From Chryseolinea sp. (GTDB taxonomy: Bacteria > Bacteroidota > Bacteroidia > Cytophagales > Cyclobacteriaceae), in assembly GCA_039916665.1 (NCBI GenBank), contig JBDSKX010000061.1, forward strand, positions 57,055 to 121,054: a stretch of DNA of 64,000 nucleotides, written 5' to 3'. Numbering within the stretch: position 1 is the stretch's first letter; each line of letters opens with the position of its first letter. The notes under the pieces are model-generated. The model did no database searches and was not told the DNA's origin. It was given only the letters and a program-made list of their open reading frames with translations. Both the position numbers and the translations under genes were made by a program. Shown one piece after another: positions 35,858 to 62,874 of this stretch.

Positions 35858-35982
35858 GAGGTCTTTTTAACAAGAAGGTGCATTTCTCACACGATTGAAA
35901 TACAGATTTTATCGTGGATATCAAATTCGCTCTATTTGTGCTACAATCCAAAGGATTGGTGTCGCTGATATTGAAACGAGCT

Positions 35983-37404: not shown

Positions 37405-37440
37405 GGGTGTAAATTATCGATAATATGTATACGTTTTGAT

Positions 37441-37473
37441 AAAAAAAGGCGCCTCGTATTCGGGGCGCCTTTT
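37441..37473 (-). terminator. Intrinsic terminator between susD and GH29
   Basis: AAAAAAAGGCGCCTCG-TATT-CGGGGCGCCTTTT. Confidence 0.8.
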
Positions 37474-37555
37474 AATTCATTAAAAAAAAGAAAAGTGGGA
37501 AGTAATTTAAATTGCAGCTCAAATACTTCCCCTTTCCAAACCCAAATCTTCTACG

Positions 37556-39154: not shown

Positions 39155-39167
39155 GATGTGGTCTTGA

Positions 39168-42263: not shown

Positions 42264-42425
42264 AGATTATTTGGGTTGATTAATTAATGGACAATGAAGC
42301 GGACACAACTGTGCCTGACTTTATTACCATTTTGCTCCAAACGGTTGGAAATCTGGATTCTAACCTGATAATCTAAAATTATTTTGGACTCTTAGTGTTT
42401 GATGGAATTTTCCGGCGAGAGCAGG

Positions 42426-44009: not shown

Positions 44010-44010
44010 A

Positions 44011-47682: not shown

Positions 47683-47709
47683 GTTTCGGTCCAGATATGG
47701 TGAAACGGA

Positions 47710-48714
47710 TCAATGTATCTCCGCCTTTCGAATATAGAGACGGTTTTCCTTTTCTTCAATCTTTATCTCAAGAGCCTGACTGAGCACCTCAACCAGCACT
47801 TTTAAATCGTTGGCGGGAACTCTGGCGGTGACTCTTTTTTTCAGAAGAGATGTATCGGTTGAGATAACCACCTTACCAAACGTCTCTTTAATGTTGTCAG
47901 CGACTACAGAAAGTGGCACGTCATTCATCACATACTGATTTTTCAACCATGCAAGATTATCTTCGGCTTTCGTGTCTGCAAGTTTTCGCACGGCTATCGT
48001 ATTTGCACCATTAACAATGCTCGCTTCGTCTCCAGGACTTAAAGTCTCTTCAGCATTTCCTTTTGTCAGTTTTATTTTTCCTGACTGAAGATAAATCTTT
48101 ACTGCGTTGTTGCGACAGTTAACATTGAAAGAGGTTCCGTGGACATGAATCTCTATACCATTATTGGTATGGACAATGAACGGGGAATTATTAGCGGTAT
48201 GGACAACTTCAAAGAAAGCGTCACCATCGACAGTTACATTCCGAGCATCTGAGTTGAAATGGGCGGACTCAACTTGCAATATTGAACCTGCATTGAGCGT
48301 AATGGATGTTCCATCCTCAAGCGTAATCTTCTTCGTTTCGCCGTATCCTGTTGTATATAATATAGTGTCATTGGTCTTCGACTGAAACCTGTAGGTTGCA
48401 AATGCAATTATCATCAATCCAGCAACAGCAGCGGCTACTTTGTAAATCATTGCTCTCCTTGAGTTGATGTGTGAGTAATTTTGGTGGATTTGCTGCCACG
48501 TTTCAAGGAATGCAACATTGGCGGTCTCGTCAGTGGACAATCCCGTAAGGCGCACCAATTCCACAGCCTGATGTAGTGTTTCTTTTTTGTGGGGGTATTG
48601 TTCGAGAAATTCCGCCCAATCACGGTTAGAACGAATGTTTGGAGCTAAAGCCCACTCCTGAAAATACTTATCGAGCGCAAATTGCTCTGGCGAGTAAAGC
48701 CTATAATGGTTCAT
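47710..48714 (-). CDS. FecR-family anti-sigma factor
   Basis: N-terminal F..D.YFQEW, TM helix, ITLEDGTSITLNAGS, GDAFFEV, VHGTSFNV. Confidence 0.92.
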   Translation of the reverse strand: MNHYRLYSPEQFALDKYFQEWALAPNIRSNRDWAEFLEQYPHKKETLHQAVELVRLTGLSTDETANVAFLETWQQIHQNYSHINSRRAMIYKVAAAVAGLMIIAFATYRFQSKTNDTILYTTGYGETKKITLEDGTSITLNAGSILQVESAHFNSDARNVTVDGDAFFEVVHTANNSPFIVHTNNGIEIHVHGTSFNVNCRNNAVKIYLQSGKIKLTKGNAEETLSPGDEASIVNGANTIAVRKLADTKAEDNLAWLKNQYVMNDVPLSVVADNIKETFGKVVISTDTSLLKKRVTARVPANDLKVLVEVLSQALEIKIEEKENRLYIRKAEIH

Positions 48715-48984
48715 GGTCCGGGTAAACAATCCTGTTAAAATAATCAACCAAAATGAAATAGCCTACACGAAACAAAGTCTCCACGTGGGGATTCTGGTGT
48801 TTACCAGGAAGGCATTCTAGGGTAAGACGGGCAAAAAGTGAATTTCTCCTCCCTCGTGGCTGAATTTAATTTCGCAGACCCCAAATAATCTGGCAAAGTC
48901 ACGAAAAAATGGTCATACGGCCCTGTTCTGCAAGAGTACTACTTCAATGCGATAACTTTATTGAAAACAAGGAAATACGAACGC

Positions 48985-49863: not shown

Positions 49864-51942
49864 TCATTTCTTCTTCTCCGAAGGCAATGGAACGCACAGC
49901 GTAACATCTGGCGGAAGACGTTTACCAGCTACTTTAATGCGTTTACTATCTTTGGTAGCGATAGCTGGATTGTGATCAAAGAAGCCGAATGGCGCCAACG
50001 TAAAGCCTAGTGTATGTGTATTCATGATAGGCCACTCCTCGGGCCTGACGATGTGAGTAATTCCCAGGTTATACCAGACGACGAGATCCTTCCCCACTAC
50101 ATCTTCATTGTCTGACGTCCAACGTGTAATACCATCTTTTATTCCTCTCGTATTCGGATACTCGCCGGCAGGATGCATCTCGTCTTGTTTGAAAGTTGTG
50201 ACCCACACCTGATTTTCAAGGAAGTCGGCCATTTTTCTTGGACCAGATGGCGTGGCGGCGTAAGGCATTGCATTTGAACCCGGCATGATCACATAACTCT
50301 TCATCTGGCCCAATGCGTTTGTTTCTTTTGAATCGCCGATCATCCAATGTCTGTTGCTGGAAGGATTGAGGCTTCGTTGCCCATCGGCTTCTTTTTTAAT
50401 CAATGATGTTATCCGGGCAAAAGCGTTGCTGTGGGGATTCTTGATTGATGTTGGAAGTGTTACTGTGTTCATCTCTTCAACCATGTTTTCAGATCCATCG
50501 ACATCGAAGTCAAGTCGGAATGAAAAGAAATGTTGGTGATTTACTGCTTCGACATGGGGAGCGACCAGAGTTCCAAAATAATTTCCATTGAAAGTCTCAT
50601 CTGCGCCACCGGGCAGATCGTTGATACGATTCACACCTTTAATACCGACGATACCAGTCAGTTCAGCGCGAAGATCGATTGTGCCGTCTTCGTGAAATAT
50701 CCACTTCAAACCATAATCATAATTCCAGACTCGCGTGAAATATTTGACTACAAGGTTTCTGGCTTCTTGAGAAAACTTTCCGTGTCTCGTCAGCGGACCG
50801 CCATATTCTTCATACACTGCAATGACACTGTCGAGTTTGACTGGATCACCCGCTTCTGTATGAAATATTGATGAAATAAATTTTGAATTCATTGGAACAT
50901 CTGCACCTGCTTTCAATCCGTTCATACCTCCGGGTTCTGATTGCCCCAGTCTATATGCGCCAACGTCGTAGTAATTCCAAGCTGCGTGTGTCAGGTCCGT
51001 TGAGCCATAGGGAACATACATTTCAGCAACTGATGCGCGGTATAGTATTCTGCGCATTTGTCCTTCATCGTTAAAGCGAACGTCGCGAATAACAAGACCT
51101 TCGCGGTTGTCCATGGCAACGCGAAACGTCCAGTATTTGCTTTTTATTTCATAGCCTTCGATGGTAAAGTCGGTACCCTCCGGCTGTGTAATATTCAACG
51201 GCTTGTTGTTTGCCAGGGCTTTGTTTACAGTGGGATCGAAATAGCCGATGTCTTCGGGTTTATAATAACCTTTTCCACCATCATCCATCACCTTTAGCAC
51301 TTCACGAGATGTCAGGTCGACGTAAGCAACAAGTCCGTCGATAAGCAGTTCATGATATTTTTTATTGATGTATTGAGGCGTACAAATCATTTCGCGGTGG
51401 TCTGCAGGCGCCATGCCCATTTCACCGGCAAAAACATACGAAGTATGTACTGAGTCAGGGTGAATGTTCCGGCGCTTTAATCCTTCTAACCAGCGCGCAT
51501 CCTTTTTCAAAATCAAATCTGTGAGTGTGTCACCTTCAAGACCGCCTGCCGTAACTCCGGGGATATTGTTAAACGATTTTACACTTTTTGAATTGAGATC
51601 GATGACTGCTTCATACGTTTTGTTGTTGTTCCAATCATAAAGTACGGCAAAGGCTTCTCTTGTGAAGGTATCACCTGTTTTGTAATTCAGAATTTCATTT
51701 TTCGCAGGCTCTTTAAGATTAATGACAAAAAACCGATGGCTGGAATCGATTTTCTTTTCACTCAGAAGGAGTCTTTTTACACTGTTGATTTCATCGGATG
51801 AAAGAGGATCGAGTGGGTGCAGCGCAGAAGTGAACGCTTTTTCAGCTTTTAGAGGCGATGCAGTTTTCCTTTGTGAGCAATTCATCAACATCAACGCAAT
51901 GCAGGGGACAAAGAGGAATGAAGCGCGCATTTGATTCTTCAT
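49864..51942 (-). CDS. Copper/TPQ primary amine oxidase, lipoprotein
   Basis: HPLDPLS, NYYD (active-site Asp), WNYDY (TPQ consensus), NHQH and ITHIVRPEEWPIM (three Cu His); lipobox LMNC. Confidence 0.93.
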   Translation of the reverse strand: MKNQMRASFLFVPCIALMLMNCSQRKTASPLKAEKAFTSALHPLDPLSSDEINSVKRLLLSEKKIDSSHRFFVINLKEPAKNEILNYKTGDTFTREAFAVLYDWNNNKTYEAVIDLNSKSVKSFNNIPGVTAGGLEGDTLTDLILKKDARWLEGLKRRNIHPDSVHTSYVFAGEMGMAPADHREMICTPQYINKKYHELLIDGLVAYVDLTSREVLKVMDDGGKGYYKPEDIGYFDPTVNKALANNKPLNITQPEGTDFTIEGYEIKSKYWTFRVAMDNREGLVIRDVRFNDEGQMRRILYRASVAEMYVPYGSTDLTHAAWNYYDVGAYRLGQSEPGGMNGLKAGADVPMNSKFISSIFHTEAGDPVKLDSVIAVYEEYGGPLTRHGKFSQEARNLVVKYFTRVWNYDYGLKWIFHEDGTIDLRAELTGIVGIKGVNRINDLPGGADETFNGNYFGTLVAPHVEAVNHQHFFSFRLDFDVDGSENMVEEMNTVTLPTSIKNPHSNAFARITSLIKKEADGQRSLNPSSNRHWMIGDSKETNALGQMKSYVIMPGSNAMPYAATPSGPRKMADFLENQVWVTTFKQDEMHPAGEYPNTRGIKDGITRWTSDNEDVVGKDLVVWYNLGITHIVRPEEWPIMNTHTLGFTLAPFGFFDHNPAIATKDSKRIKVAGKRLPPDVTLCVPLPSEKKK

Positions 51943-52001: not shown

Positions 52002-52018
52002 TGCGTAATACTTACGCA
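52002..52018. promoter_or_regulatory. NrtR-type operator 1: TGCGTAA-TAC-TTACGCA
   Basis: Perfect palindrome with GT-N7-AC core, upstream of an NrtR-family gene. Confidence 0.8.
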
Positions 52019-52035
52019 AAGAGTTGATACTTTAG

Positions 52036-52052
52036 TGCGTAATATCTACGCT
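52036..52052. promoter_or_regulatory. NrtR-type operator 2: TGCGTAATATCTACGCT
   Basis: GCGT-N7-ACGC core, 34 bp from site 1; shares GTGCGTAATA with it. Confidence 0.75.
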
Positions 52053-52071: not shown

Positions 52072-52800
52072 ATGAAACAATATTCGCGAAGTCGATTTGG
52101 CGATTCCCTGAACGAAGTATCGGTAGACTGCGTCATGTTTGGGTTTCATGCGGATGAATTGAAAGTGCTTTTAGTTAAGGCTAAAGACTCTGATATATGG
52201 AGTCTGCCACGAGGCGGAATATTCATGAGAGAACCGGTAGAAGAGGCAGCTGTCAGGGTCTTGCAAGAAACAACGGGCATCGAAGATGTGTTTCTCCAGC
52301 AGTTTTACACATTTGGAGCGGGACAGCGAGATAAGTACATCATGCCTTCTAAAGGATCACGCCGACGGGGCTCTAAAGCAAAACGAGACGAGGAAAGTGT
52401 GATATCGATTGGGTACTATGCGCTGGTGGATTTTGAGAAGGTTGTTCCGAGTCTCACGGACATGTTTTTATGGTGTGAGATATCTGCTTTACCCGATCTG
52501 CAATTTGATCACAATGTTATGATTGAGTTGGCACTTGTGGCATTGAAGAAAGATCTTCGGTACCTGCCAATTGCCAAGCTGCTTCCCAGAAAATTCACTT
52601 TGAGGGAAATGCAGAAATTGTACGAAACGATACTCAACAGAAGTTTTGATCGACGCAATTTTCACAAACTCCTGATGGGTTATGATTTTCTGATCAAGTT
52701 ATCCGAAAAAAAAACAGGAACGGCGAATAAGTCTCCGCACCTCTACAAGATCAATTTTGAAAGATATGAAACAGCACTCCAGGATGGTATCTCATATTAA
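52072..52800 (+). CDS. NrtR/AraR-family Nudix-wHTH transcriptional regulator
   Basis: VSVDCVMFG, degenerate Nudix box, QFYTFG..RD, FDH, LLP.KFTL, DRRNFHK. Confidence 0.92.
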   Translation: MKQYSRSRFGDSLNEVSVDCVMFGFHADELKVLLVKAKDSDIWSLPRGGIFMREPVEEAAVRVLQETTGIEDVFLQQFYTFGAGQRDKYIMPSKGSRRRGSKAKRDEESVISIGYYALVDFEKVVPSLTDMFLWCEISALPDLQFDHNVMIELALVALKKDLRYLPIAKLLPRKFTLREMQKLYETILNRSFDRRNFHKLLMGYDFLIKLSEKKTGTANKSPHLYKINFERYETALQDGISY

Positions 52801-55309
52801 AGGACTTTTATCTCATCATTCCTACACGAAATTTGTTTTGATGTGTATCCCGATGTTGCTGTTATTCGGCGATGTGAATGCTCAGCATGCGACAACTCGG
52901 GGCAAAATAAAAGTGTTTGTCATTGCTGCCAAAGATCAATCTCATAGCGCTATGGTCGATCAGGCATCGGTAATGTTCAAAAAAATAGGCGATGATAACA
53001 GTTATCAAATTGATTTTAGTAAAGATACTGCACTACTTACTGCCGCCAATCTCGCCAAGTATGACGTAATAATCCAGCTTCACGTTTCACCGTTGAGCCT
53101 TGCACGAAAGCATCAATTTGCTATCCAGCAATTTATCTCAAAAGGTAAAGGGTGGATTGGAATCCACGCTGCAGGTGTCCGGGCAGAACAAGCCGACTTG
53201 GAAGCACAGGATCACTGGAAGTGGTATTCGCAATTATTAGGTGGAGCACGTTACACTCCGTTGCCTCCGGTTCGTGAGGGTCTTGTCACGATAGAAGCGA
53301 GTACCCATCCAGTTACAAAAAATCTTTCCACCAGTTTTGCTCTTACGGATGAGTGGTATTCATTCGACAAACAACTGGCATCAGACGCGATTATACTGGC
53401 GACTGCAGACGTGGACAAAAAAGGGAAGCAGCCTGTGATATGGATCAATCCACATTTTGACAGAGCGCTGTATATCGCCCTGGGGCACGATGCAAGTTCT
53501 TGCACGAATGCGAGCTATCATACTTTACTAAAGGATGCGATCTCCTGGGCAGCAATTCATGAAGGTGTCGAAGTACACAAGATGGAAGAGTTCACGAAAA
53601 GTTCAGGATCAATACTTGTCAATCAGGTGGGATATAATGCCAACTTGCCGAAGGCAGCAGTTTTTAAAACGAAAGCAAAACTCAATGGTGATATAACTTT
53701 CAGTATTGTCGACGCGCTGTCCTTCGAACCAGTCTACTCTGGAAAAATCAAAACATCCGAGCAAGTTCTAGATTGGAATGATGCATGGTATAGTCAGATC
53801 GACTTTAGTGAATTTAAAAAACCGGGGTTTTATAAGATCAAGGCTGAGATTGATCATCAGACGTATGAATCATTCAATTTTGAGATTGGAGATCATTTGT
53901 TAGCAAAGACATTGATTCCTGCTATCGCAAATTTCTTTGTCGGCCAAAAAGCAAATTCGAAAGAGGAGTTATCGGGCGACGAACATGTTAGGCTATTCGG
54001 GAGTGATAAAACGGTAGACCTGCGCGGCGGATGGGCTGATGCATCAGGTGATGTGAGCAAGTACTTCTCTCATCTTGCTTATACCAATTTTATGAGTCCA
54101 CAGCAAATACCGCTTGCAGACTGGTCGATGATTCAGTCTGTGGAATCGATTCCCTCTGTATTAAGGGGATCAGTCGTAGAGGACTCGTTAAGGCTTGAAG
54201 CATTCTATGGTGCTGATTACATTATGAAATCTCTTTCGACTGAAGGCTATTTTTATATGACGCTGTTTTCATATTTCAAGAAAGACCCCAGTGAACGCCG
54301 TGTCGTTGGACTTTTGGCCGACAGCAAAACAACGTCAGAATACCAAGCGGGGTATCGTGAGGGTGGTGGCATGGGTGTCGCGTGTCTTGCACGTATTTCG
54401 ACATGGAAGCAAAAAAGTACGTACTCGCAAGCTCAATATTTGAAGGCCGCTGAAAGAGCGTTTGAACATTTGCAAAAAAATAGCATTAAGTATATTGATG
54501 ATCATAAGGAGAATATTATTGATGATTATACTGCGTTGATGGGTAGCACTGAACTGTGGATTGCCACCAAAAACTTTTCATATCGAAGGGAAGCAAGATT
54601 GCGCGCAAAGAAATTAGCGGACAGGATATCAACCGAAGGATTCTTCTGGAGCAACGATGAAAAGACACGCCCGTTCTGGCATGCATCGGATGCGGGATTG
54701 CCAGTCATCTCATTGATCAGATACCTCCAAGTCGAAACTGATGCGCCAATGCGAGAAAAAGCGTTGGAGACGATCAAGAAGTTTATTGATTATCAGTTGC
54801 GGGTTTCTAAAGAGACCGTTAATCCATTCCGATATCCAAGACAGACATTTAAGGTGAACGGTGAGATCAAGAATGGATTTTTTATTCCACATGAGAATGA
54901 GAGCGGATGGTGGTGGCAAGGTGAAGACGCACGTATCGGATCCCTGGCAAGTGTGTTACTGAGGGGCGGCCGCCTCGTGTACCCTGAAAATAACGCACTG
55001 GGCGTCAGATCAGATATCGGAGAAGTGGCGAGCAGCCTTGTGGGTTGGGTGCTGGGTTGTAATCCTTATGAAGTGTGTATGATGTATGGATATGGTCAAA
55101 TCAACGTTCCTTACATGGCAGCAATGTATGGCCATGGTTCCGGAATAGGCGGAATATCAAACGGCGTAACCGGCGCCAACGGTAAGCCTGATGGTTCTGG
55201 GATTGATTTCAAATACGAAGACAACGGCAACGAATGGCGCTGGAGTGAGCAATGGATTCCGCATTCTGCGTGGTTTCTTCAGGCGATTACGGCCATTGAA
55301 TCCAAATGA
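52784..55309 (+). CDS. Secreted ThuA-like + Ig + GH9 fusion (exo-beta-glucosaminidase-like subgroup)
   Basis: Signal-like LLLFGDVNAQ; ThuA motifs GWIGIHAA and DEWY; ILVNQVGY; DLRGGWADASGDVSKYFSHL...PQQIP; WRWSEQWIPH. Confidence 0.85.
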   Translation: MVSHIKGLLSHHSYTKFVLMCIPMLLLFGDVNAQHATTRGKIKVFVIAAKDQSHSAMVDQASVMFKKIGDDNSYQIDFSKDTALLTAANLAKYDVIIQLHVSPLSLARKHQFAIQQFISKGKGWIGIHAAGVRAEQADLEAQDHWKWYSQLLGGARYTPLPPVREGLVTIEASTHPVTKNLSTSFALTDEWYSFDKQLASDAIILATADVDKKGKQPVIWINPHFDRALYIALGHDASSCTNASYHTLLKDAISWAAIHEGVEVHKMEEFTKSSGSILVNQVGYNANLPKAAVFKTKAKLNGDITFSIVDALSFEPVYSGKIKTSEQVLDWNDAWYSQIDFSEFKKPGFYKIKAEIDHQTYESFNFEIGDHLLAKTLIPAIANFFVGQKANSKEELSGDEHVRLFGSDKTVDLRGGWADASGDVSKYFSHLAYTNFMSPQQIPLADWSMIQSVESIPSVLRGSVVEDSLRLEAFYGADYIMKSLSTEGYFYMTLFSYFKKDPSERRVVGLLADSKTTSEYQAGYREGGGMGVACLARISTWKQKSTYSQAQYLKAAERAFEHLQKNSIKYIDDHKENIIDDYTALMGSTELWIATKNFSYRREARLRAKKLADRISTEGFFWSNDEKTRPFWHASDAGLPVISLIRYLQVETDAPMREKALETIKKFIDYQLRVSKETVNPFRYPRQTFKVNGEIKNGFFIPHENESGWWWQGEDARIGSLASVLLRGGRLVYPENNALGVRSDIGEVASSLVGWVLGCNPYEVCMMYGYGQINVPYMAAMYGHGSGIGGISNGVTGANGKPDGSGIDFKYEDNGNEWRWSEQWIPHSAWFLQAITAIESK

Positions 55310-55351
55310 AACAGTTTGAATTGACGCAGTGAACAAATGAGAATTATTTAG

Positions 55352-55762
55352 ATGAGAAAATTTCTTATAGCAGCGCACGGTAGTTTTTCATCCGGTATAA
55401 AATCGTCATTAGACTTTATTATCGGTGAAACTAAAAATCTATACATCATCGACGCGTACATCGATAACAATAAATCAATCGAAGATGAACTTCAGTTGAT
55501 ACTGATTGATCTTAAGCCGGACGACGAACTTATTGTGATGTCGGATCTTATGGGTGGAAGTATTACAAACCAGATTCTCAGATTCGCGTTGCAACGAAAT
55601 GTTCACATAGTTTCAGGAATCAGCCTGGGGTTGGTAATTGAAATTGTTATGGGCGATGAGTTAGTTTCGGCCGGAGAAATTATTGAAAACGCAATCATAA
55701 ATGCACGAGAGCAAATGGTTTATGTGAATAAATTGATTAATAAAGAAAACGACAATGCTTAA
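55352..55762 (+). CDS. PTS mannose/fructose/sorbose family EIIA
   Basis: LIAAHG (phospho-His), SDLMGGSITN. Confidence 0.93.
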   Translation: MRKFLIAAHGSFSSGIKSSLDFIIGETKNLYIIDAYIDNNKSIEDELQLILIDLKPDDELIVMSDLMGGSITNQILRFALQRNVHIVSGISLGLVIEIVMGDELVSAGEIIENAIINAREQMVYVNKLINKENDNA

Positions 55763-56231
55763 ACTATTAAGGATCGACGACAGGCTGGTTCACGGGCAGG
55801 TGGCTTTTACGTGGGTGCCATCTTTGGGGATTGATTGTTTGTTAGTCGCCAATGATAAAGTGGCGCGCGATGACTTTCAGAAAATGACACTAGGTTTGGC
55901 TAAACCGGCGAGCACAAAGCTCATTATTAAATCTGTAGGTGATGCCGTTCTTTTTCTGAATGATGAAAAGAACAAAGGTCTGAAGATACTCACGCTTGTC
56001 AACTCAGTAGTTGACGCCTTTGCACTCGCGAGCGGAGTTTCCCAAGTTCAATCGATCAACTTCGGAGGAATTCGGGCAAGAGAAGGTGCAAAGCTAATCT
56101 CGAAGGCTATCGCAGTGACAGAGCAAGATGTGACGTTGATCAGGGAATTGGTTCGACGAGGCATTGAATTGGAGATACGCCAGGTTCCATCGGATCAAAA
56201 ACAGAAAGTTGAATCTTTTATTCAAAATTAG
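55755..56231 (+). CDS. PTS mannose/fructose/sorbose family EIIB
   Basis: LRIDDRLVHGQV (phospho-His), INFGG, RQVP; 8-nt overlap with EIIA. Confidence 0.95.
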   Translation: MLKLLRIDDRLVHGQVAFTWVPSLGIDCLLVANDKVARDDFQKMTLGLAKPASTKLIIKSVGDAVLFLNDEKNKGLKILTLVNSVVDAFALASGVSQVQSINFGGIRAREGAKLISKAIAVTEQDVTLIRELVRRGIELEIRQVPSDQKQKVESFIQN

Positions 56232-56257
56232 ACTAGCCTTAACGCCATGAACACGCT

Positions 56258-57826
56258 ATGATAATGAGCTATTTTATGATCACGCTCGTAGCCATGTTCG
56301 GGCACCTGGAAGATTTTCTAGGAACTACGTTGCTGAGCCGCCCATTGGTTCTCGGTCCCCTGGTTGGACTTGTACTTGGTGACTTTCAGCAAGGAATTAT
56401 TATCGGCGCAACGCTAGAGCTGATCTTTATGGGCAACATCAAGGTAGGGGCGGCAATTCCACCGGACGTTATCACGGGTGGGGTACTGGGTACAGCATTC
56501 GCAATCATTTCAGGCAAGGGCGCTGCCGTTGCTCTTGGACTCGCAGTGCCAATTTCAATTTTGGCGGAAATGTTGCTGAGCAGCTTGTTTATTTTTCGCG
56601 CGACCTTTAACAAAAAATTTAATCAATATGCTGAAGAGGGTGATCTTCGTAAGCTCGAGTGGCTTCACATATTCTCTGGACTACTGAAGCCATTGCTTAT
56701 GGGGCTTATCGTTTTTCTTGCCTTACAACTCGGCGCTGAAACAATGAAGACCGTACTTGACAGCATTCCGGAATGGGTCACAAGGGGTCTGCAGGTTGCG
56801 GGCGCAATGTTGCCTGCACTTGGATTCGCGCTCTTGATGAGCGTAATGTTTAACAACCGCGTTGCTCCATATTTTTTTCTAGGATTTATTCTCAGTGGAT
56901 ATCTCAAACTGCCGATGATTGCAATAGGTGGGTTGGGACTTATTCTCGCATTGTTGATAGTACGTTTGAAGACCGAAAACTCCGAGGAGGAGGGAGACGG
57001 ACAAACAGATTCGCCGACACCCGATAACTCAGTGCTTTCGAGGCAAGACATCAGAAAGATATTCTTCAGATCACTTGCCCTCGAGGCAAATTTCAATTTT
57101 GAAACCTGTCAGAATACCGGTTTTGCATTTTCAATAGCCCCCGCGTTGAAGAAAATATATCGAACAAAAGAAGCGATCTCGATAGCGATGAAAAGGCATT
57201 TGCAATTCTTTAATACGAGTCCTTACGGATCAACGTTCATTTTAGGTATGTCTGCGGCGATGGAAGAACAGAACGGAAAGTCTGATGATTTTGATCCTGA
57301 ATCCATCAATTCCGTCAAGCTTGGCTTGATGGGTCCGTTAGCAGGTGTGTTTGATTCTTTGTTTTGGGGAACGTTAAAAGTGATTGCTGCAGGTGTAGGC
57401 ACATCGTTGGCACTAAAAGGAAGCTTCGTTGGGCCTTTGCTATTTATCATGATTTATAATATCCCGCATATTTTAATTCGATACAACCTTACATTTCTTG
57501 GCTATCGTCAGGGGAATAAATTTCTCCAGAAAATGGCGTCGGGGCATATGATGGATAAACTTACTTCTGGTGCGGCGATAGTAGGTCTCATGGTAGTGGG
57601 TGCAATGCCTTCATTATTAATGTCGGTCAAAACACCGTTGTCGTATGGTGCAGACTCGAACATTCAGTTACAGCAAATACTGGATCAAATCGTGCCAGGA
57701 ATAATACCTCTTGCGTTGACATTCCTGTCTTACTTTCTTTTGAAACGAAACATTAAACCTACTTACATTTTGCTGAGTCTGCTGATCCTTGGATTCATCG
57801 GAAGCGCTTTGCATGTGTTGTCTTGA
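56258..57826 (+). CDS. PTS mannose-family fused EIIC-EIID permease
   Basis: IIC: RPLVLGPLVGLVLGD...LELIFMG...GAAIPPD. Acidic linker. IID: RHLQFFNT, KLGLMGPLAG..DSLFWGTL. Confidence 0.93.
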   Translation: MIMSYFMITLVAMFGHLEDFLGTTLLSRPLVLGPLVGLVLGDFQQGIIIGATLELIFMGNIKVGAAIPPDVITGGVLGTAFAIISGKGAAVALGLAVPISILAEMLLSSLFIFRATFNKKFNQYAEEGDLRKLEWLHIFSGLLKPLLMGLIVFLALQLGAETMKTVLDSIPEWVTRGLQVAGAMLPALGFALLMSVMFNNRVAPYFFLGFILSGYLKLPMIAIGGLGLILALLIVRLKTENSEEEGDGQTDSPTPDNSVLSRQDIRKIFFRSLALEANFNFETCQNTGFAFSIAPALKKIYRTKEAISIAMKRHLQFFNTSPYGSTFILGMSAAMEEQNGKSDDFDPESINSVKLGLMGPLAGVFDSLFWGTLKVIAAGVGTSLALKGSFVGPLLFIMIYNIPHILIRYNLTFLGYRQGNKFLQKMASGHMMDKLTSGAAIVGLMVVGAMPSLLMSVKTPLSYGADSNIQLQQILDQIVPGIIPLALTFLSYFLLKRNIKPTYILLSLLILGFIGSALHVLS

Positions 57827-57836
57827 AATAAAAGTG

Positions 57837-59576
57837 ATGGATAATTTGAATTATAAATCGGGAGTGGCAGAAATAAAAGGAGTTGGAGCATCACCGGGTA
57901 TTGCCATTGGAAATGCTTTTCGTTTCCGAAAAGAAGTGGTCCGTGCTACTGAATTGAAATTATCGGATGACTCAGAAGTCAAACGTGAAATTGAAAAGTT
58001 CGATGCGGCAGTTAATATATCTGTGCGAGATGTTAAGCAAGTCATTGAGCGCGATTCATCCCTAAACCGCGAAGTAGTAGATGTGCTTGAAAGTCATCTT
58101 GAATTTATAACCGATCCGCAGCTGAGGTCGGACGTTGTTTCCCGGATTACGGATCATAAAATGTTCGCTATCGACTCCGTTGTAAAAGTTATTGAACTGA
58201 CAACTGTTGCCTTCAATGATCTGGATAGTGACTACATGCGCGCAAGAGCTGCCGACGTTCAGGATATCGGTGAACGCATACTGAGAAACCTCAGTTATTC
58301 GTATTCCGGTAAGCTCGAAATAAATGAGAATTCTATATTGATTGCCGAAGACATTTCGCCATCCGATACGATAGCGCTGGATCTTAGTAAAGTTATGGGA
58401 TTTGCAACCCAACTTGGAAGCCGAACGTCGCATACCGCCATTCTGGCAAGATCTAAGAATATTCCTGCGGTACTTGGATGTGGCGAAATTCTTGCGTCGG
58501 TCAACGATGGCGATCTCCTGATTGTTGATGGACTAAATGGAATCGTCCACGTTAATCCACCAGCGCATTTGTTGAGATACTATCGCGAACGGAAAGAAGC
58601 GCATGAACGGCAAGCAGACGCGTTAAAATCTTTGAGACACCACCTTGCAGTAACTGCTGATGGACGTCAAATTAAATTGCTGGCGAACATATCGTCAGCA
58701 GACGATCTTGAGGATTCTTTTGAATATGGTGCGATGGGTGCCGGGCTATTCAGAACTGAAATGCTATTCATGAATAGAACTTCATTTCCTTCCGAGCAGA
58801 GGCAATTTGAATGCTATAAACAGGTTGGGGTAAAGTCGAGGGGAAAGGAAGTCACCATACGAACGATGGATATCGGTGGCGATAAACCACTTGATTATTT
58901 TGAGATTCCAAGGGAAGACAATCCATTTTTAGGCTATCGCGGCGTACGAATTTCGCTTGATAGAAGAGATGTTTTTATTACTCAACTCCGCGCAATTCTG
59001 CGCGCATCCATATTTGGCAACTTCAGGATTATGTTTCCGATGATATCGGGTCTTGAAGAGTTGCTCGCAGCGAAGTCGATGGTGGAGGAGGCCAAATCGC
59101 AGTTGAAAACTGAGCAGTTGGAGTTTGACAGGCAGATTCCCCTTGGTATTATGATTGAAGTGCCATCCGCGGCAATAGTGGCAGATATCCTCGCGCCCGA
59201 AGCCGACTTCTTTAGCATTGGCACGAATGACTTGTGTCAGTATACTTTGGCAGTAGATCGCGGTAATGAAAAGATCAAGTCCTTATATGAGCCACTAAAT
59301 CCTGCTGTGTTGAGATTGATCAGTTTCGTGATCGATGCGGCGCGTCAAAATAATATCGACGTTGGAATGTGTGGTGAATTCGCGGCTGATCCAAAATCGA
59401 CGTTGTTGTTGATTGGGATGGGGCTGCATGAATTTTCGATGAGTGCGTCGTCTATACCGCGCGTTAAAAATGTAATACTCAACCATACTGAGGCGAAGGC
59501 GCGGGAAATATGGCGCAACGTGAAGACAATGCGTCGCACCGACAGTATTATAAAATATTTAGAGGCCTTAATATGA
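57837..59576 (+). CDS. ptsI: PTS enzyme I (PEP-protein phosphotransferase)
   Basis: ASPGIAIG, SRTSHTAILARS (phospho-His), GLFRTE, RTMDIGGDK, NPFLGYRG, FSIGTNDL, GMCGE. Confidence 0.97.
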   Translation: MDNLNYKSGVAEIKGVGASPGIAIGNAFRFRKEVVRATELKLSDDSEVKREIEKFDAAVNISVRDVKQVIERDSSLNREVVDVLESHLEFITDPQLRSDVVSRITDHKMFAIDSVVKVIELTTVAFNDLDSDYMRARAADVQDIGERILRNLSYSYSGKLEINENSILIAEDISPSDTIALDLSKVMGFATQLGSRTSHTAILARSKNIPAVLGCGEILASVNDGDLLIVDGLNGIVHVNPPAHLLRYYRERKEAHERQADALKSLRHHLAVTADGRQIKLLANISSADDLEDSFEYGAMGAGLFRTEMLFMNRTSFPSEQRQFECYKQVGVKSRGKEVTIRTMDIGGDKPLDYFEIPREDNPFLGYRGVRISLDRRDVFITQLRAILRASIFGNFRIMFPMISGLEELLAAKSMVEEAKSQLKTEQLEFDRQIPLGIMIEVPSAAIVADILAPEADFFSIGTNDLCQYTLAVDRGNEKIKSLYEPLNPAVLRLISFVIDAARQNNIDVGMCGEFAADPKSTLLLIGMGLHEFSMSASSIPRVKNVILNHTEAKAREIWRNVKTMRRTDSIIKYLEALI

Positions 59577-59839
59577 TATCAAAAGACTACTTGATTACGG
59601 CTGCGGAAGGAATTCACGCCCGTCCAGCGACAACATTGATCAGACTTGTTAAACATTTCAAGTCTGCGGTCATCCTTAGGAAAGGTGATAAGTCGATCCG
59701 TTTGAATAGTATTCTTAACATCCTGACTTTCGGTGCGAAAGGTGGCGACACAGTCACGGTAATTGTCGAAGGTGAAGATGAGGTAGCGGCAGCAGCGTCA
59801 ATCGATAAATTTTTCAAAGAGGAATTAAAGCAACTTTAA
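59573..59839 (+). CDS. ptsH: Phosphocarrier protein HPr
   Basis: GIHARPA (His15), NSILNILTFG (Ser46 region); ATGA overlap with EI. Confidence 0.95.
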   Translation: MISKDYLITAAEGIHARPATTLIRLVKHFKSAVILRKGDKSIRLNSILNILTFGAKGGDTVTVIVEGEDEVAAAASIDKFFKEELKQL

Positions 59840-59853
59840 TTGATTTTACATCC

Positions 59854-60579
59854 ATGAAAATAACAATAGAGAAAAGTGAACGTGAATTTGATATAGCCGC
59901 TGCGTGGCGGATCATCGGACAGATGCTTGAAAAGCCCAATGCTGTTATCGGCCTGTCAACGGGACAAACGACGTTGAACATGCATGCCGTAGTTTCTGAG
60001 ATCTACGCCAAGTATCGATTTGACGTTTCACGTGTGACCTTGTTTAATGTCGATGAGCTAACGAACCTTCCGCGAGAGTATTCCGGCAGTTGTTACACAA
60101 TGATATTGAATCAGATTGCGGCGCCTTTGGGAATTCCCAATGAAAATTTCATTATGCCTCCAACGCTTTCAAACGATTTTGAGGCAGAATGTTTGCTTTT
60201 TGAAAAGAGACTTCAAGAACGTGGTGGTGCGGATCTGCAAATGCTTGGTCTTGGTGCGAATGGACATATTGGAATCAATCAACCAGGAACACCCTTTGAA
60301 AGTGAGACATGGGTTTCTCCTATGGATCCCGACTTTGAGGCGCGCGTCAGAAGGGAGACTAACGTGCCTGCAGATCACATTTTGGGCGGGCTTACGAGAG
60401 GCATCAAAAATATCATGCATACCAGGAAGCTGATATTGATTGCGAAAGGCAAACATAAAGCGGCAATGGTGAGGCAGGCAGTACTTGGTCCGGTGACTAC
60501 GGATATTCCCGCTTCGGTTTTGCAGCTGCATCCCAATTGCGAGATACTACTGGACGCTGATGCAGCGTCGGAACTATAG
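59854..60579 (+). CDS. nagB: Glucosamine-6-phosphate deaminase-like protein (atypical)
   Basis: GLSTGQT, FNVDE, LGANGHIGINQPG, PASVLQLHP. Confidence 0.82.
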   Translation: MKITIEKSEREFDIAAAWRIIGQMLEKPNAVIGLSTGQTTLNMHAVVSEIYAKYRFDVSRVTLFNVDELTNLPREYSGSCYTMILNQIAAPLGIPNENFIMPPTLSNDFEAECLLFEKRLQERGGADLQMLGLGANGHIGINQPGTPFESETWVSPMDPDFEARVRRETNVPADHILGGLTRGIKNIMHTRKLILIAKGKHKAAMVRQAVLGPVTTDIPASVLQLHPNCEILLDADAASEL

Positions 60580-61184: not shown

Positions 61185-61338
61185 TAGAACATTGTGGCAG
61201 TCGATTCAAAGCTGAAGTTGTACAACTGCAAATGAAAAGCTCCGTTGATGTATAACCTGTGTCGAAATCTGCCGGAAGATATAACTTTATCATTAGCGCG
61301 CAACAAATATTCAATTGTTGCATAAACATAAAAAAAGC

Positions 61339-62874
61339 ATGAGGAGAATTATGATAATGATGTTCGCTTCGCTGTCGACATTGTGTAATGCGCAACCTGC
61401 GACTAAGCACAAATCAACGCCGATAGCTTTTACTGCAGATGAGGATCATCAGAATATGATGGATCAATTAGGCGTTAAGGCGCTTCGACCTGGGCCAAGT
61501 GGCAACGAGTCAGCACCAAATCACGCGAATTATGACGAGTCTGTGGCTAACCCATATCCTGATCTACCCGATCCGTTGGTATTGAATAATGGAAAGAAAG
61601 TGACAACAGCTGATATGTGGTGGAAGCAACGGCGACCCGAGATCGTCGAAGATTTTGAACGGGAAGTGTATGGTCGACTTCCGAAGAATATTCCGAAGGT
61701 TACCTGGAAGGTTGTTCTTTCCGAACGCGAAAATCTTGGCTTTACCCCGGTATTGACACGGAAAGTCATTGGCCATGTTGACAACTCTATGTATGCACAG
61801 ATTGATGTCAATATTTCGATGATAGTTGTGACACCTGCAAATGCAAAAGGTCCTGTGCCTGTACTGATGATGTTTGGCACGTCGACATTCCCTGCGGCAG
61901 TACAACCCAACAAAGATGATTTTGAAAAATTAAATGCTGCCTTTCGGGAATTGATGTCCAAGGATCCAGAGATTAAGGCATTGCTGGATAAATACCCGAC
62001 GTATAGCCCACTCGTGAGACCTGCTGGCGTGACCGCGTCGGGTTTCCAAATGCCACAGCCGGGTGAGCCGTCGCCAACAAATCAATTGATTGCTGATGGA
62101 TGGGGATTTGTGTTAATCGAGCCGGGCTCAATTCAGGCAGATAATGGCGAAGGAATAACAAAAGGAATTATAGGATTAGTGAATAAGGGCCAACCGAGAA
62201 AGCCTGACGATTGGGGAGCTCTTCGGGCCTGGAGTTGGGGCGCGGCGCGCGCATTGGATTATCTCGAGACGGATGCAACTGTTGATTCAAAACACATTGG
62301 AATTGAAGGTGTGTCGAGGTATGGTAAGGCCGCACTGGTCACGCTGGCTTTCGAACCTCGTTTTGCATTCGGATTGATCGGATCGTCAGGCAAAGGTGGA
62401 TCAACATTGCACCGACGAAATTTCGGTGAGGCTGTTGAAAGCCTGACGGGTGGTGAGTATTATTGGATGGCTGGAAACTATATCAAGTATGGCGCGTCCG
62501 AAGGCAAATATGGTAACATGGATGCGGGTAAGCTGCCTGTTGATTCACACGAACTCATTGCACTTTGTGCACCGCGTCCAACATTCATCAGTTATGGCGT
62601 ACCGGAGCAGGGCGACGCAAAGTGGCTGGATCAACAGGGAAGCTATATGGCGACCGTTGCAGCCGGACCTGTGTATAGATTGCTTGGCGCGAAAGACATT
62701 GGTGTTTCAAGTGAATATAAAACAGAAAAGATGCCAGGCATTAATATCAGTTTACTCGATGGCGAGCTCGCGTGGCGACAGCATGATGGAGGTCATACAG
62801 ATGCACCGAATTTCAAGTACTTTATTCCCTGGGCGGATAAATTTGTAAGAGTACCCTCCAAAACAGAAAACTAA
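61339..62874 (+). CDS. CE15 glucuronoyl-esterase-like secreted esterase
   Basis: LPDPL, WGALRAWSWGAARALDYL, GVSRYGK nucleophile motif, ELIALCAPRP, HDGGH. Confidence 0.88.
   Translation: MRRIMIMMFASLSTLCNAQPATKHKSTPIAFTADEDHQNMMDQLGVKALRPGPSGNESAPNHANYDESVANPYPDLPDPLVLNNGKKVTTADMWWKQRRPEIVEDFEREVYGRLPKNIPKVTWKVVLSERENLGFTPVLTRKVIGHVDNSMYAQIDVNISMIVVTPANAKGPVPVLMMFGTSTFPAAVQPNKDDFEKLNAAFRELMSKDPEIKALLDKYPTYSPLVRPAGVTASGFQMPQPGEPSPTNQLIADGWGFVLIEPGSIQADNGEGITKGIIGLVNKGQPRKPDDWGALRAWSWGAARALDYLETDATVDSKHIGIEGVSRYGKAALVTLAFEPRFAFGLIGSSGKGGSTLHRRNFGEAVESLTGGEYYWMAGNYIKYGASEGKYGNMDAGKLPVDSHELIALCAPRPTFISYGVPEQGDAKWLDQQGSYMATVAAGPVYRLLGAKDIGVSSEYKTEKMPGINISLLDGELAWRQHDGGHTDAPNFKYFIPWADKFVRVPSKTEN

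What the first reader, a model, noticed from the sequence alone, without database searches (positions are those of the whole stretch)
52072..60579. Complete self-contained mannose-family PTS operon in a Bacteroidota genome: candidate undescribed amino-sugar system
Seen: regulator, ThuA-GH9, EIIA, EIIB, EIIC-D, EI, HPr and NagB-like are co-oriented with overlaps or short gaps, and the phospho-His motifs of EI, HPr, IIA and IIB are all present. Established: Bacteroidota are generally regarded as lacking complete sugar PTSs and use TonB/SusC plus symporters and kinases. Mannose-family PTSs can carry glucosamine and other amino sugars, and NagB converts GlcN-6-P to Fru-6-P. Inference: a horizontally acquired cassette bringing its own EI and HPr, running (GlcN)n to GlcN (periplasm) to GlcN-6-P (PTS) to Fru-6-P + NH3, grafted onto Bacteroidota-type regulation and secretion.
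Basis: partly seen in the sequence, partly recalled or inferred. Interest (0 to 1): 0.9.

Follow-up and report, generated by a model that had tools for sequence, protein, structure and literature searches.

The report
Self-contained amino-sugar PTS operon in Chryseolinea
A soil Bacteroidota bacterium (Chryseolinea) carries an intact sugar-import operon of a kind its class almost never has, complete with its own energy-coupling proteins; it most likely takes up glucosamine that a periplasmic enzyme clips off chitosan-type oligomers, and nobody has tested it.

Summary
Window 52072-60579 holds nine co-oriented, tightly packed genes: a NrtR/AraR-type regulator, a secreted ThuA-GH9, IIA, IIB, a fused IIC-IID, EI, HPr and a NagB-like deaminase. 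All four phospho-His sites are present. It is the only PTS in this 6.3-Mb Chryseolinea genome.

- It is not a one-off. The same IIA-IIB-IICD-EI-HPr-NagB core lies in 28 named Bacteroidota species of at least four orders and in over 700 metagenome protein clusters.
- It is rare in class Bacteroidia: IID 0/400 and EI 1/400 in even draws, against 9/36 in the genus.
- The nearest relatives outside the phylum, for both IID (50-55% identity) and EI (43-49%), are from Clostridia. G+C is native, so any transfer was old, and the cassette has since moved within the phylum.
- The GH9 is of the Vibrio exo-beta-glucosaminidase type but carries a signal peptide.
- The NagB-like enzyme has Gln for the canonical Glu in 25/25 copies.
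- ThuA-like secreted proteins and, in six loci, a copper amine oxidase travel with the cassette. Neither is explained.

The most likely function is periplasmic GlcN release, then PTS uptake to GlcN-6-P, then Fru-6-P. The held literature has no characterisation. This scan met the cassette before on another genome (e1-2227126), and that reading agrees.

The parts
49864..51942 (-). Copper amine oxidase with a lipoprotein-type signal. It is transcribed divergently from the operon and shares its control region. It is an associated gene, not part of the PTS core.
   Evidence: Pfam Cu_amine_oxid 386 bits and NCBIfam primary-amine oxidase 605 bits. A homologue lies next to the cassette in 6 loci and inside the operon in L013. 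The N-terminus has a Cys lipobox.
52003..52051 (.). Two palindromic operator-like sites, GCGTA-N5-TACGC, at 52003-52017 and 52037-52051, upstream of the regulator gene.
   Evidence: The same motif lies upstream of the NrtR-type gene in all 10 related loci that have that regulator, and in none of the other 39 fetched loci. The tandem pair is unique in the 6.3-Mb genome.
52072..52800 (+). NrtR/AraR-family regulator: a degenerate Nudix ligand-binding domain plus a winged helix.
   Evidence: PF21906 67 bits, NUDIX 31 bits, AraR_C 31 bits. The NtrR equivalog score is only 81 against a cut-off of 400. The Nudix box reads RVLQETTG, so the catalytic residues are lost.
52757..55309 (+). Secreted three-part enzyme: signal peptide, ThuA-like domain (aa 52-265), CelD_N Ig-like domain (aa 283-364) and an exo-type GH9 catalytic domain (to aa 845).
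   Evidence: PDB matches 3h7l, 6gdt and 5dgq at E 1e-115 to 1e-121, aligned end to end with DASGD and the C-terminal catalytic Glu kept. The N-terminus has a hydrophobic stretch ending in VNAQ. No T9SS C-terminal domain was found.
55352..55762 (+). EIIA of the mannose family, phospho-His9.
   Evidence: PF03610. The best NCBIfam hit is AgaF at 65.8 bits, below its cut-off of 130. AAHG motif.
55755..56231 (+). EIIB of the mannose/sorbose family, phospho-His12. It overlaps the IIA gene by 8 bases.
   Evidence: PF03830 147 bits. RIDDRLVHGQ motif.
56258..57826 (+). Fused EIIC-EIID membrane translocator, 522 aa.
   Evidence: PF03609 (aa 3-232) plus PF03613 (aa 260-521). Matches ManY and ManZ of 6k1h. 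All 28 related loci and the top 120 database relatives are fused, at 510-545 aa.
57837..59576 (+). Enzyme I (PEP-protein phosphotransferase), the only one in the genome.
   Evidence: TIGR01417 613.8 bits against a cut-off of 341.7. His in GSRTSHTAI. Single copy. The start ATG lies 10 bases after the IICD stop.
59573..59839 (+). HPr, with His15 and Ser46. Its start overlaps the EI stop as ATGA.
   Evidence: PF00381 80 bits and TIGR01003 79.5 bits against a cut-off of 47.9. Sequence read.
59854..60579 (+). NagB-like sugar-phosphate deaminase/isomerase of the short monomeric type, with Gln in place of the canonical Glu.
   Evidence: PF01182. Below all NCBIfam cut-offs. The best PDB match is B. 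subtilis NagB 2bkv at 122 bits; FNVDE is kept and NGHIGINQPG stands where NagB has NEPG. The change is in 25/25 cassette copies, which are 81-87% identical across orders.

Best explanation
This is a working, dedicated phosphotransferase pathway for an unacetylated amino sugar, most likely D-glucosamine. It belongs to an old lineage confined to Bacteroidota.

Proposed flow:
1. Beta-1,4-linked glucosamine oligomers (chitosan or partly deacetylated chitin fragments) reach the periplasm.
2. The secreted ThuA-GH9 enzyme removes GlcN from the non-reducing end.
3. The fused IIC-IID translocator takes up GlcN and phosphorylates it at O6, with phosphate passed PEP -> EI -> HPr(His15) -> IIA(His9) -> IIB(His12).
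4. The NagB-like enzyme converts GlcN-6-P to fructose-6-P plus ammonium.

The cassette carries its own EI and HPr because the host class has none. The NrtR/AraR-type repressor binds the two GCGTA-N5-TACGC sites and probably releases them on binding the sugar or its phosphate. In this way it controls both the operon and the divergent amine oxidase gene.

Shown: gene content, order and motifs, conservation, distribution, and the signal peptides.
Inferred: the substrate, the direction of flow, the effector, and the repressor mode.
For: - All parts are complete and all phospho-His sites are present.
- Every PTS part is single-copy and no other PTS component is in the genome.
- The order IIA-IIB-IICD-EI-HPr-NagB is conserved in 25-28 loci from Cytophagales, Sphingobacteriales, Flavobacteriales, Chitinophagales and Saprospirales, which indicates purifying selection on the set.
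- The GH9 partner is next to the cassette in 18 loci. It aligns end to end with the three exo-acting GH9 enzymes VP2484, VC0615 and PBPRA0520, with catalytic residues kept. PBPRA0520 prefers (GlcN)2 about 15-fold over cellobiose, and VC0615 cleaves chitosan oligomers (PMC6096475).
- All GH9 and ThuA copies have signal peptides, so cleavage comes before uptake.
- The only cytoplasmic enzyme is NagB-like, and there is no NagA, kinase or aldolase. GlcN-6-P to Fru-6-P is therefore the one amino-sugar route that needs nothing further.
- The nearest non-fused relatives, in Clostridium tertium and Lachnospiraceae (IID 52-55% identical), sit in IIA-IIB-IIC-IID operons. These are followed by a GlmS-isomerase/NagB-II/FrlB-like SIS enzyme, so this branch of the family handles amino-sugar phosphates.
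- From established knowledge: E. coli ManXYZ is the GlcN transporter of that organism.
- The operators are conserved in all 10 NrtR-type loci.
Against: - There is no experiment on any member, and no RNA data could be fetched.
- The NagB-like protein falls below every NCBIfam NagB cut-off. It carries an invariant Gln where NagB has the Glu of the ring-opening His-Glu pair, so its substrate or chemistry may differ.
- No GH46 or GH75 chitosanase is in the genome, and no SusC/D pair is linked to the cassette in any locus. How oligomers are made and how they cross the outer membrane is open.
- Exo-GH9 enzymes also cleave beta-glucosides.
- NCBIfam scores for IIA and IIC lean towards the GalNAc system (AgaF, AgaW), though below cut-off.
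- The model gives no role to the ThuA-like proteins or the copper amine oxidase.
Confidence: 0.6

Rival explanations
1. The system is an amino-sugar PTS, but for a sugar other than GlcN. Examples are galactosamine from fungal galactosaminogalactan or Pel-type polymers, or mannosamine. The Gln-variant NagB-like enzyme would then be the matching 6-phosphate deaminase/isomerase.
For: The best named NCBIfam hits for IIA and IIC are AgaF and AgaW of the GalNAc system. The deaminase also scores 138 bits on the galactosamine-6-P isomerase model. The invariant Glu-to-Gln change suggests a specificity different from canonical NagB. The ThuA-like fold is the fold of CBM87 in Agd3, which binds galactosaminogalactan (PMC7229062).
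Against: All Aga scores are below cut-off. GalN-6-P would give tagatose-6-P, which needs a kinase and an aldolase, and no locus carries them. The conserved glycosidase partner belongs to the beta-glucosaminidase/glucosidase GH9 subgroup.
Confidence: 0.12
2. The GH9 works as an exo-beta-glucosidase on cello-oligosaccharides. The PTS is a broad glucose/mannose/GlcN porter like ManXYZ, and the NagB-like enzyme serves only the GlcN share.
For: VC0615 and PBPRA0520 also cleave cello-oligosaccharides. The IID half scores 240 bits on the ManZ-type model. ManXYZ-type porters are broad (established knowledge).
Against: The deaminase is the most conserved gene of the cassette, at 81-87% identity across orders against 50-60% for EI. 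That would be odd for a side activity. The closest outgroup operons all carry an amino-sugar-phosphate enzyme. Motifs in IID differ from ManZ: FNFETCQ against WNFERMQ, and AGVFDS against AGVGDP.
Confidence: 0.1
3. The system takes up sugar-amine adducts, such as Heyns or Amadori compounds like glucoselysine. The NagB-like enzyme acts as a deglycase that releases the amine.
For: JGI's automatic annotation names the IICD 'fructoselysine and glucoselysine-specific IID'. The chemistry of glucoselysine-6-P deglycation parallels the NagB reaction (inference). An amine oxidase is linked to the cassette.
Against: Known Gfr and Frl systems use SIS-domain deglycases and sigma-54 or GntR control, and neither is present here. 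The amine oxidase is exported, not cytoplasmic. A glycoside hydrolase partner has no role in this model.
Confidence: 0.05
4. The cassette is a decaying or purely regulatory remnant of an old transfer and has no transport role.
For: Its distribution is patchy: 9/36 in the genus and 0/400 in the class. A decayed Man-type PTS in another Bacteroidota genome was noted earlier in this scan (e1-4063083; unchecked).
Against: All nine ORFs are intact, with overlapping start and stop codons. All catalytic His residues are kept. Synteny is conserved across orders, and more than 700 full-length fused relatives exist.
Confidence: 0.03

Closest known systems
E. coli ManXYZ and streptococcal ManLMN (mannose-family PTS, TC 4.A.6), which also carry glucosamine
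   Same: The IIA-Man, IIB-sorbose, IIC and IID domains are present, with His on both IIA and IIB. The IIC and IID halves align with ManY and ManZ of structure 6k1h. Phosphate presumably passes PEP-EI-HPr-IIA-IIB.
   Different: IIC and IID are one polypeptide, and IIA and IIB are separate. EI and HPr are encoded inside the operon. Motifs in IID differ (FNFETCQ, AGVFDS). Control is by an NrtR/AraR-type regulator, not Mlc or LevR. The host is class Bacteroidia. The substrate is supplied by a periplasmic glycosidase.
Clostridial IIA-IIB-IIC-IID-SIS operons (Clostridium tertium; Lachnospiraceae, the latter with HPr and EI nearby)
   Same: These are the nearest sequence relatives of the IID half, at 52-55% identity. 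Each has an amino-sugar-phosphate enzyme directly downstream, and the Lachnospiraceae locus also has its own HPr and EI.
   Different: IIC and IID are unfused. The downstream enzyme is a SIS (GlmS-isomerase/NagB-II/FrlB-like) protein, not NagB-like. Regulators are sigma-54/LevR-type or GntR. The linked Lachnospiraceae EI is only 37% identical. These operons are themselves uncharacterised.
Vibrionaceae chitobiose (GlcN)2 pathway with the exo-GH9 enzymes VC0615 and PBPRA0520
   Same: The GH9 exo-glucosaminidase subgroup is the same, with full-length alignment and catalytic DASGD and Glu kept. In both cases the enzyme is coupled to a PTS and to GlcN-6-P catabolism.
   Different: In Vibrio the PTS is of the Lac/chitobiose family and imports the disaccharide, and the GH9 has been proposed to act on GlcN-GlcN-6-P after PTS import (PMC6096475). 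Here the GH9 has a signal peptide and an N-terminal ThuA domain, so the order is cleavage first, then uptake of the monomer by a Man-family PTS.
Usual Bacteroidota glucosamine route (NagX transacetylase, NagP, NagK, NagA, NagB; PMC9007349)
   Same: The end product is the same, Fru-6-P through a GlcN-6-P deaminase step.
   Different: That route acetylates GlcN in the periplasm, imports GlcNAc by a symporter, phosphorylates it with ATP and then deacetylates it. The cassette would skip acetylation and use PEP.
Bacteroides AraR and NrtR (Nudix-related regulators)
   Same: The architecture is a Nudix-like domain plus a winged helix, with palindromic operators in front of a sugar operon.
   Different: The score on the NtrR equivalog model is 81 against a cut-off of 400. 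The operator is GCGTA-N5-TACGC, and the effector is unknown.

Membership tests
Mannose-family PTS enzyme II (TC 4.A.6) | IIA-Man and IIB-sorbose domains, each with a phosphorylatable His | tested here: met
   PF03610 and PF03830. His9 in AAHG and His12 in DDRLVHGQ. The strict regexes [GAS][TS]HG and D.R.[IVL]HGQ matched 14/27 IIA and 19/21 IIB copies. The window's own AAHG is outside the IIA regex, so the regex undercounts and the remaining copies were not examined.
Mannose-family PTS enzyme II (TC 4.A.6) | Both IIC (EII-Sor) and the family-specific IID membrane domains | tested here: met
   PF03609 250.6 bits and PF03613 321.2 bits in one ORF. Aligns to ManY and ManZ of 6k1h. Scores are below the narrower NCBIfam subfamily cut-offs.
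Mannose-family PTS enzyme II (TC 4.A.6) | PEP-dependent transport and phosphorylation of a hexose or amino sugar | not testable with these tools
   This needs a biochemical or genetic assay.
General PTS proteins EI and HPr | Three-domain EI with active His, above the curated cut-off, and HPr with His15 | tested here: met
   TIGR01417 613.8 against 341.7 and TIGR01003 79.5 against 47.9. GSRTSHTAI and GIHARPA.
Glucosamine-6-phosphate deaminase NagB | Score above the curated NagB model cut-offs | tested here: not met
   TIGR00502 142.1 against 236.9, and NF001684 188.5 against 326. The Pfam superfamily domain is met.
Glucosamine-6-phosphate deaminase NagB | Catalytic Asp (FNxDE) and the His...Glu pair of the GHIxFNEP motif | tested here: inconclusive
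   Asp and His are kept (FNVDE, NGHIG). The Glu is Gln (NQPG) in 25/25 copies. The effect on activity is unknown.
Exo-acting GH9 glucosaminidase/glucosidase subgroup (VC0615, PBPRA0520, VP2484) | Full-length similarity that includes the loop regions closing subsites -2 to -4, the catalytic Asp pair and the catalytic Glu | tested here: met
   E 5e-121, 1.5e-116 and 2e-115. The alignment runs over residues 6-565 of the domain without large gaps. GGWADASGDVSKY and WRWSEQWIPH are kept. The loops are described in PMC6096475.
Exo-acting GH9 glucosaminidase/glucosidase subgroup (VC0615, PBPRA0520, VP2484) | Preference for GlcN over Glc at the cleaved bond | not testable with these tools
   No sequence determinant of this preference is known (PMC6096475).
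E. coli Aga (GalNAc/GalN) PTS | Equivalog-level scores and linked agaS, agaA and kbaY genes | tested here: not met
   AgaF 65.8 against 130, AgaW 214.6 against 300, AgaE 183 against 500. No SIS enzyme, deacetylase or aldolase gene is in any locus.
Gfr fructoselysine/glucoselysine PTS | SIS-domain deglycases and a sigma-54 activator in the operon | tested here: not met
   None is present. The name comes only from automatic JGI annotation.
NrtR/AraR Nudix-related regulators | Nudix-like domain plus NrtR-type winged helix, with palindromic operators upstream of target genes | tested here: met
   PF21906, PF00293 and PF19368. Operators are conserved in 10/10 loci that have the regulator. The NtrR equivalog cut-off is not met, so this is a family member, not an NtrR orthologue.

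The most novel reading that the evidence does not exclude
The ThuA-like domain is fused to the GH9 here. It is also present as 23 further secreted stand-alone copies in 13 related loci, and it has four invariant His, one Glu and several invariant Trp and Tyr residues. It may be an undescribed periplasmic enzyme, or a binder, for amino-glycans. The most interesting version is an N-deacetylase. That would give a 'deacetylate, clip off GlcN, import by PTS' route from chitin oligomers, a bacterial analogue of the archaeal Dac/GlmA pathway. This would explain three things: no NagA and no chitosanase are present, GH18 genes sit in some loci, and the NagB variant is so strongly conserved. The linked copper amine oxidase would belong to the same amine-nitrogen regulon.
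Probability: 0.12. Interest if true: 0.8.

Novelty: new variant of a known kind. Interest (0 to 1): 0.6.

Why it matters
Class Bacteroidia is the textbook case of sugar uptake without a PTS, relying on SusC/D, symporters and kinases. In even draws of 400 species only one other genome had an EI and none had a IID.

A conserved, self-sufficient PTS lineage in soil and freshwater Bacteroidia would be the first sugar PTS to characterise in the class. It links a periplasmic glycosidase to PEP-driven uptake in a diderm that has no other PTS. It therefore offers a natural minimal PTS: one EI, one HPr and one EII, with no regulatory branches.

Four items have no tested function: the fused IIC-IID, the Gln-variant NagB, the ThuA-like partners and the linked amine oxidase. 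Cultivable carriers exist, so the questions can be tested directly.

Tried and rejected
- A within-phylum vertical origin of EI was rejected. EI is nearly universal in the non-Bacteroidia classes of GTDB Bacteroidota (294/295), but those EIs are only 38-40% identical to the cassette EI. That is lower than E. coli EI at 43%.
- The HPr-EI pair linked to the nearest Lachnospiraceae IID operon is not the source of the cassette EI (37% identity).
- PDB comparison of EI does not discriminate: E. coli 487 bits against Staphylococcus 449-466 bits.
- Names for the representative-library EI hits were mostly missing. The sister group was placed only by a further search with P0249. The deep nodes of the FastTree EI tree are weak, at 68-80 support.
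- A regulon search found no second tandem operator pair in the genome. The ten single sites are near the roughly six expected by chance.
- No GH46 or GH75 chitosanase was found. The GH75 control matched nothing in any control genome, so that result says little. GH5, GH8 and GH80 were not searched.
- Literature searches found no study of this cassette. The held library lacks most subscription journals.
- A structure prediction of the ThuA domain was considered and dropped. A solved close relative (4jqs) is itself uncharacterised, and model coordinates cannot be measured with these tools.

Full report
**1. What is there**

All are on the + strand and separated by 45 bases or fewer:

| Gene | Window coordinates | Notes |
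|---|---|---|
| NrtR/AraR-type regulator | 52072-52800 | |
| ThuA + CelD_N + GH9 | 52757-55309 | 850 aa |
| EIIA-Man | 55352-55762 | |
| EIIB-sorbose | 55755-56231 | |
| EII-Sor + EIID in one ORF | 56258-57826 | 522 aa |
| Enzyme I | ORF from 57789; likely start ATG 57837 | 10 bases after the IICD stop |
| HPr | ORF from 59510; likely start ATG 59573 | overlaps the EI stop as ATGA |
| NagB-like | 59854-60579 | |

The phospho-acceptor residues are all present: IIA His9 (AAHG), IIB His12 (DDRLVHGQ), HPr His15 (GIHARPA) plus Ser46, and the EI His in GSRTSHTAI.

A lipoprotein-type copper amine oxidase (49864-51942) is transcribed divergently. The 129-base spacer holds two GCGTA-N5-TACGC palindromes.

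**2. Whose DNA it is**

- The window is G000:C61:57055-121054 of a 6.3-Mb genome, 100% complete and 0.12% contaminated.
- Upstream lie two SusC/SusD pairs, FecR, an ECF sigma factor and a GH29 fucosidase.
- G+C is flat at 0.43-0.45 through the operon.
- The IICD protein is 98% identical to one from a 'Chryseolinea sp.' MAG.
- Same-genus genomes are row-identical to named Chryseolinea records in the tree.
- The cassette occurs in single-contig genomes of the genus.

**3. It is the only PTS of the cell**

The genome has one IID, one EI, and one copy each of IIA, IIB and HPr. It has no EIIA-Ntr (PF00359) and no HPr kinase (PF07475). The operon must therefore supply its own EI and HPr.

**4. Distribution**

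| Group searched | IID | EI |
|---|---|---|
| Same genus | 9/36 | not searched |
| 24 genomes of 21 other families of the order | 0/24 | not searched |
| Class Bacteroidia, 400 species, at least 90% complete | 0/400 | 1/400 |
| GTDB phylum, even draw | 0/400 | 294/295 genomes of other classes |

- The single EI hit in the class draw lies on a 2.3-kb contig and has an internal stop.
- The EIs of the other classes are only 38-40% identical to the cassette EI. They come without a IID, so they are a different system. The 2008 survey PMC2405797 describes regulatory EI in Chlorobia and states that the PTS is absent from Bacteroidetes.
- A pattern search over one genome for each of 185,579 species gave 28 loci, all Bacteroidota: Chryseolinea, Cyclobacteriaceae, Mucilaginibacter, Pedobacter, Daejeonella, Sphingobacterium, Flagellimonas, Chitinophagaceae and Saprospiraceae.
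- The protein database holds over 700 relatives. The best 120 are all fused, 510-545 aa long and at least 68% identical.

**5. Conserved anatomy**

- In 25-28 loci the order IIA-IIB-IICD-EI-HPr-NagB is kept.
- Across orders the NagB-like protein is 81-87% identical, IICD 67-77% and EI only 50-60%.
- Recurrent neighbours are listed below.

| Neighbour | Occurrence |
|---|---|
| Exo-type GH9 | 18 loci; fused to ThuA in most NrtR-type loci, stand-alone at about 609 aa in Mucilaginibacter |
| Secreted stand-alone ThuA-like proteins | 23 copies in 13 loci |
| NrtR-type regulator | 10 related loci, plus the window |
| Peroxiredoxin/thioredoxin-like protein | 7 loci |
| Copper amine oxidase | 6 loci; inside the operon in L013 |
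| GH18 | 4 loci |
| Y_Y_Y-type regulators | 3 loci (two Pedobacter, one unclassified Bacteroidota MAG) |

- Every GH9, ThuA and amine oxidase copy begins with a signal peptide or a lipobox.
- The operator motif lies upstream of the regulator gene in all 10 loci that have that regulator, and in none of the other 39 fetched loci. The tandem pair is unique in the genome.

**6. The glycosidase**

- The GH9 part matches VP2484 (3h7l), VC0615 (6gdt) and PBPRA0520 (5dgq) at E 5e-121 to 2e-115. The alignment runs end to end, with the DASGD Asp pair and the C-terminal Glu kept.
[quoted passage not shown] PBPRA0520 prefers (GlcN)2 about 15-fold over cellobiose, and VC0615 cleaves chitosan oligomers and beta-glucosides (PMC6096475).
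- For VC0615 it has been proposed that the enzyme acts on GlcN-GlcN-6-P after PTS import. Here it is exported, so the order is reversed: cleavage in the periplasm, then uptake of the monomer.

**7. The deaminase**

- It aligns over its full length with the short, monomeric B. subtilis NagB (2bkv, 122 bits).
- FNVDE and the His are kept, but the motif reads NGHIGINQPG where NagB has NEPG.
- The Gln is present in 25/25 cassette copies. Two other paralogues in the genome read NEPG and NDPP.
- It is below all curated NagB cut-offs.
- I therefore treat it as NagB-like, with activity on GlcN-6-P probable but unproven.

**8. Origin**

- With the IID half alone as query, the nearest unfused relatives are Clostridium tertium (55%) and Lachnospiraceae (52-53%).
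- Their operons read IIA-IIB-IIC-IID-SIS. The SIS protein resembles the GlmS isomerase domain, NagB-II and FrlB. In the Lachnospiraceae an HPr and an EI lie close by.
- In an IICD tree rooted on these, the Bacteroidota cassette is one clade (99% SH-aLRT support). The genus Chryseolinea holds at least two deep lineages, and Flagellimonas and a Saprospiraceae bin nest among Cytophagales. This points to spread within the phylum.
- In a library clustered at 50% identity, the cassette EI clade is represented by only a handful of sequences. Everything else is 47% identical or less.
- In a FastTree the cassette EIs form one clade, with P0249 and P0316 as sister at 98% SH-like support. This lies in a part of the tree that also holds Paenibacillus, a Bacillota MAG and the Lachnospiraceae EI. 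E. coli EI lies elsewhere, and the deep support is weak.
- P0249's own relatives are Caproiciproducens (61%), Synergistaceae (57%) and Thermoanaerobacterium, Thermoanaerobacter and Caldanaerobacter (48-52%). Mucilaginibacter cassette EIs reach 47-49%.
- Both markers thus lean towards Clostridia-like donors. At these identities and with native G+C, the event is old and the donor is not identified.

**9. Mechanism proposed**

GlcN oligomers are cleaved in the periplasm by ThuA-GH9. GlcN then passes through IIC-IID and receives phosphate by the route PEP-EI-HPr-IIA-IIB. The NagB-like enzyme gives Fru-6-P and ammonium. The Nudix-type repressor senses the sugar.

This route needs no further enzyme, which fits the absence of NagA, a kinase or an aldolase in all loci.

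Weak points:
- the Gln variant of the deaminase;
- no GH46 or GH75 chitosanase in the genome;
- no linked outer-membrane transporter;
- no role for ThuA or the amine oxidase.

The ThuA copies share invariant His63, His137, His184, His244, Glu199 and several Trp and Tyr residues, numbered on the window protein. That pattern fits an enzyme or a sugar binder.

At the level of fold only:
- a ThuA-like domain is the galactosaminogalactan-binding CBM87 of Agd3 (PMC7229062);
- a ThuA-like core hosts the amide-cleaving iron site of dimethylformamidase (PMC7686228).

**10. What is known**

- The usual Bacteroidota GlcN route goes through NagX, NagP, NagK and NagA (PMC9007349).
- A 2026 review lists no characterised Bacteroidota PTS and describes Man-family EII as three or four separate proteins (PMC13543919).
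- One species description notes a Fru-type PTS with ptsH and ptsI in a Maribacter (PMC10942906).
- No paper on this cassette was found.
- The scan itself met the cassette before on another genome. The follow-up there reached the same reading: a glucosamine PTS of an old lineage (e1-2227126).

**11. Verdict**

This is a real, intact and conserved system. It is a new variant of a known kind: a Man-family PTS with fused IIC-IID, its own EI and HPr, a periplasmic exo-GH9/ThuA feeder and a Gln-variant NagB, in a class that otherwise lacks the PTS.

Interest is 0.6. It would surprise specialists and can be tested in cultivable strains. The transport mechanism itself is conventional, and the substrate is still an inference.

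Noticed in passing
window 49864-51942 (-); L013:11354-13393; L015-L018: A copper amine oxidase with a lipoprotein-type signal accompanies the cassette in 6 loci. In an uncultured Sphingobacterium it sits inside the operon, between EI and HPr. No substrate link to glucosamine is evident.
   Followed up: partly
L015:6331-7095, L020 (5 copies), L024 (4), L026 (3); own genome C78, C54, C187 and others: Secreted ThuA-like proteins of about 254 aa are the commonest accessory gene of the cassette, with 23 copies in 13 loci. The window's genome has about a dozen ThuA paralogues. Invariant residues are four His, one Glu and several Trp and Tyr. The function is unknown.
   Followed up: partly
L024:5612-6739, L028:688-1812 and 5 more, mainly Mucilaginibacter, loci: A 375-aa AhpC/TSA-plus-thioredoxin-like protein lies next to the GH9 gene in 7 loci (six Mucilaginibacter and one unclassified Bacteroidota MAG). 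This may hint at peroxide handling near this pathway.
   Followed up: no
genomes G062-G458: In an even draw of the GTDB phylum Bacteroidota, 294 of 295 genomes outside class Bacteroidia carry an EI above the curated cut-off. Within class Bacteroidia the figure is 1 of 400. 'Bacteroidota lack PTS' is therefore true only of the class.
   Followed up: partly
L003-L006 versus L007-L010 (same genus): The genus Chryseolinea holds at least two deeply separated cassette lineages: IICD 66-67% against 73-74% identical to the window, and EI 50-52% against 57-60%. Flavobacteriales and Saprospiraceae copies nest among the Cytophagales ones, which suggests transfer within the phylum.
   Followed up: partly
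L048, L049 (Lachnospiraceae): A Lachnospiraceae locus joins two GntR regulators, IIA-IIB-IIC-IID, two SIS enzymes, a HAD hydrolase, HPr and EI. In L049 IS66-family genes lie next to it. This is another self-contained amino-sugar-type PTS module, and it is uncharacterised.
   Followed up: no
window 35243-48747 (-): A separate Bacteroidota-type locus: an ECF sigma factor, a GH29 fucosidase, two SusC/SusD pairs (one SusC of 1223 aa, unusually long) and FecR. No link to the PTS operon was seen in related loci.
   Followed up: no
window 61315-62874 (+): A 519-aa protein matches the fungal-type glucuronyl esterase domain (GCE_fung, 101.6 bits). It lies downstream of the operon and is not conserved next to the cassette elsewhere.
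   Followed up: no
own genome C69:20433-21125, C7:1710-2426, C236, C227, C61:3945-4589: Five further NrtR/AraR-like regulators, 32-42% identical to the operon's regulator, are in the same genome. The family appears to be expanded for sugar control in this organism.
   Followed up: no
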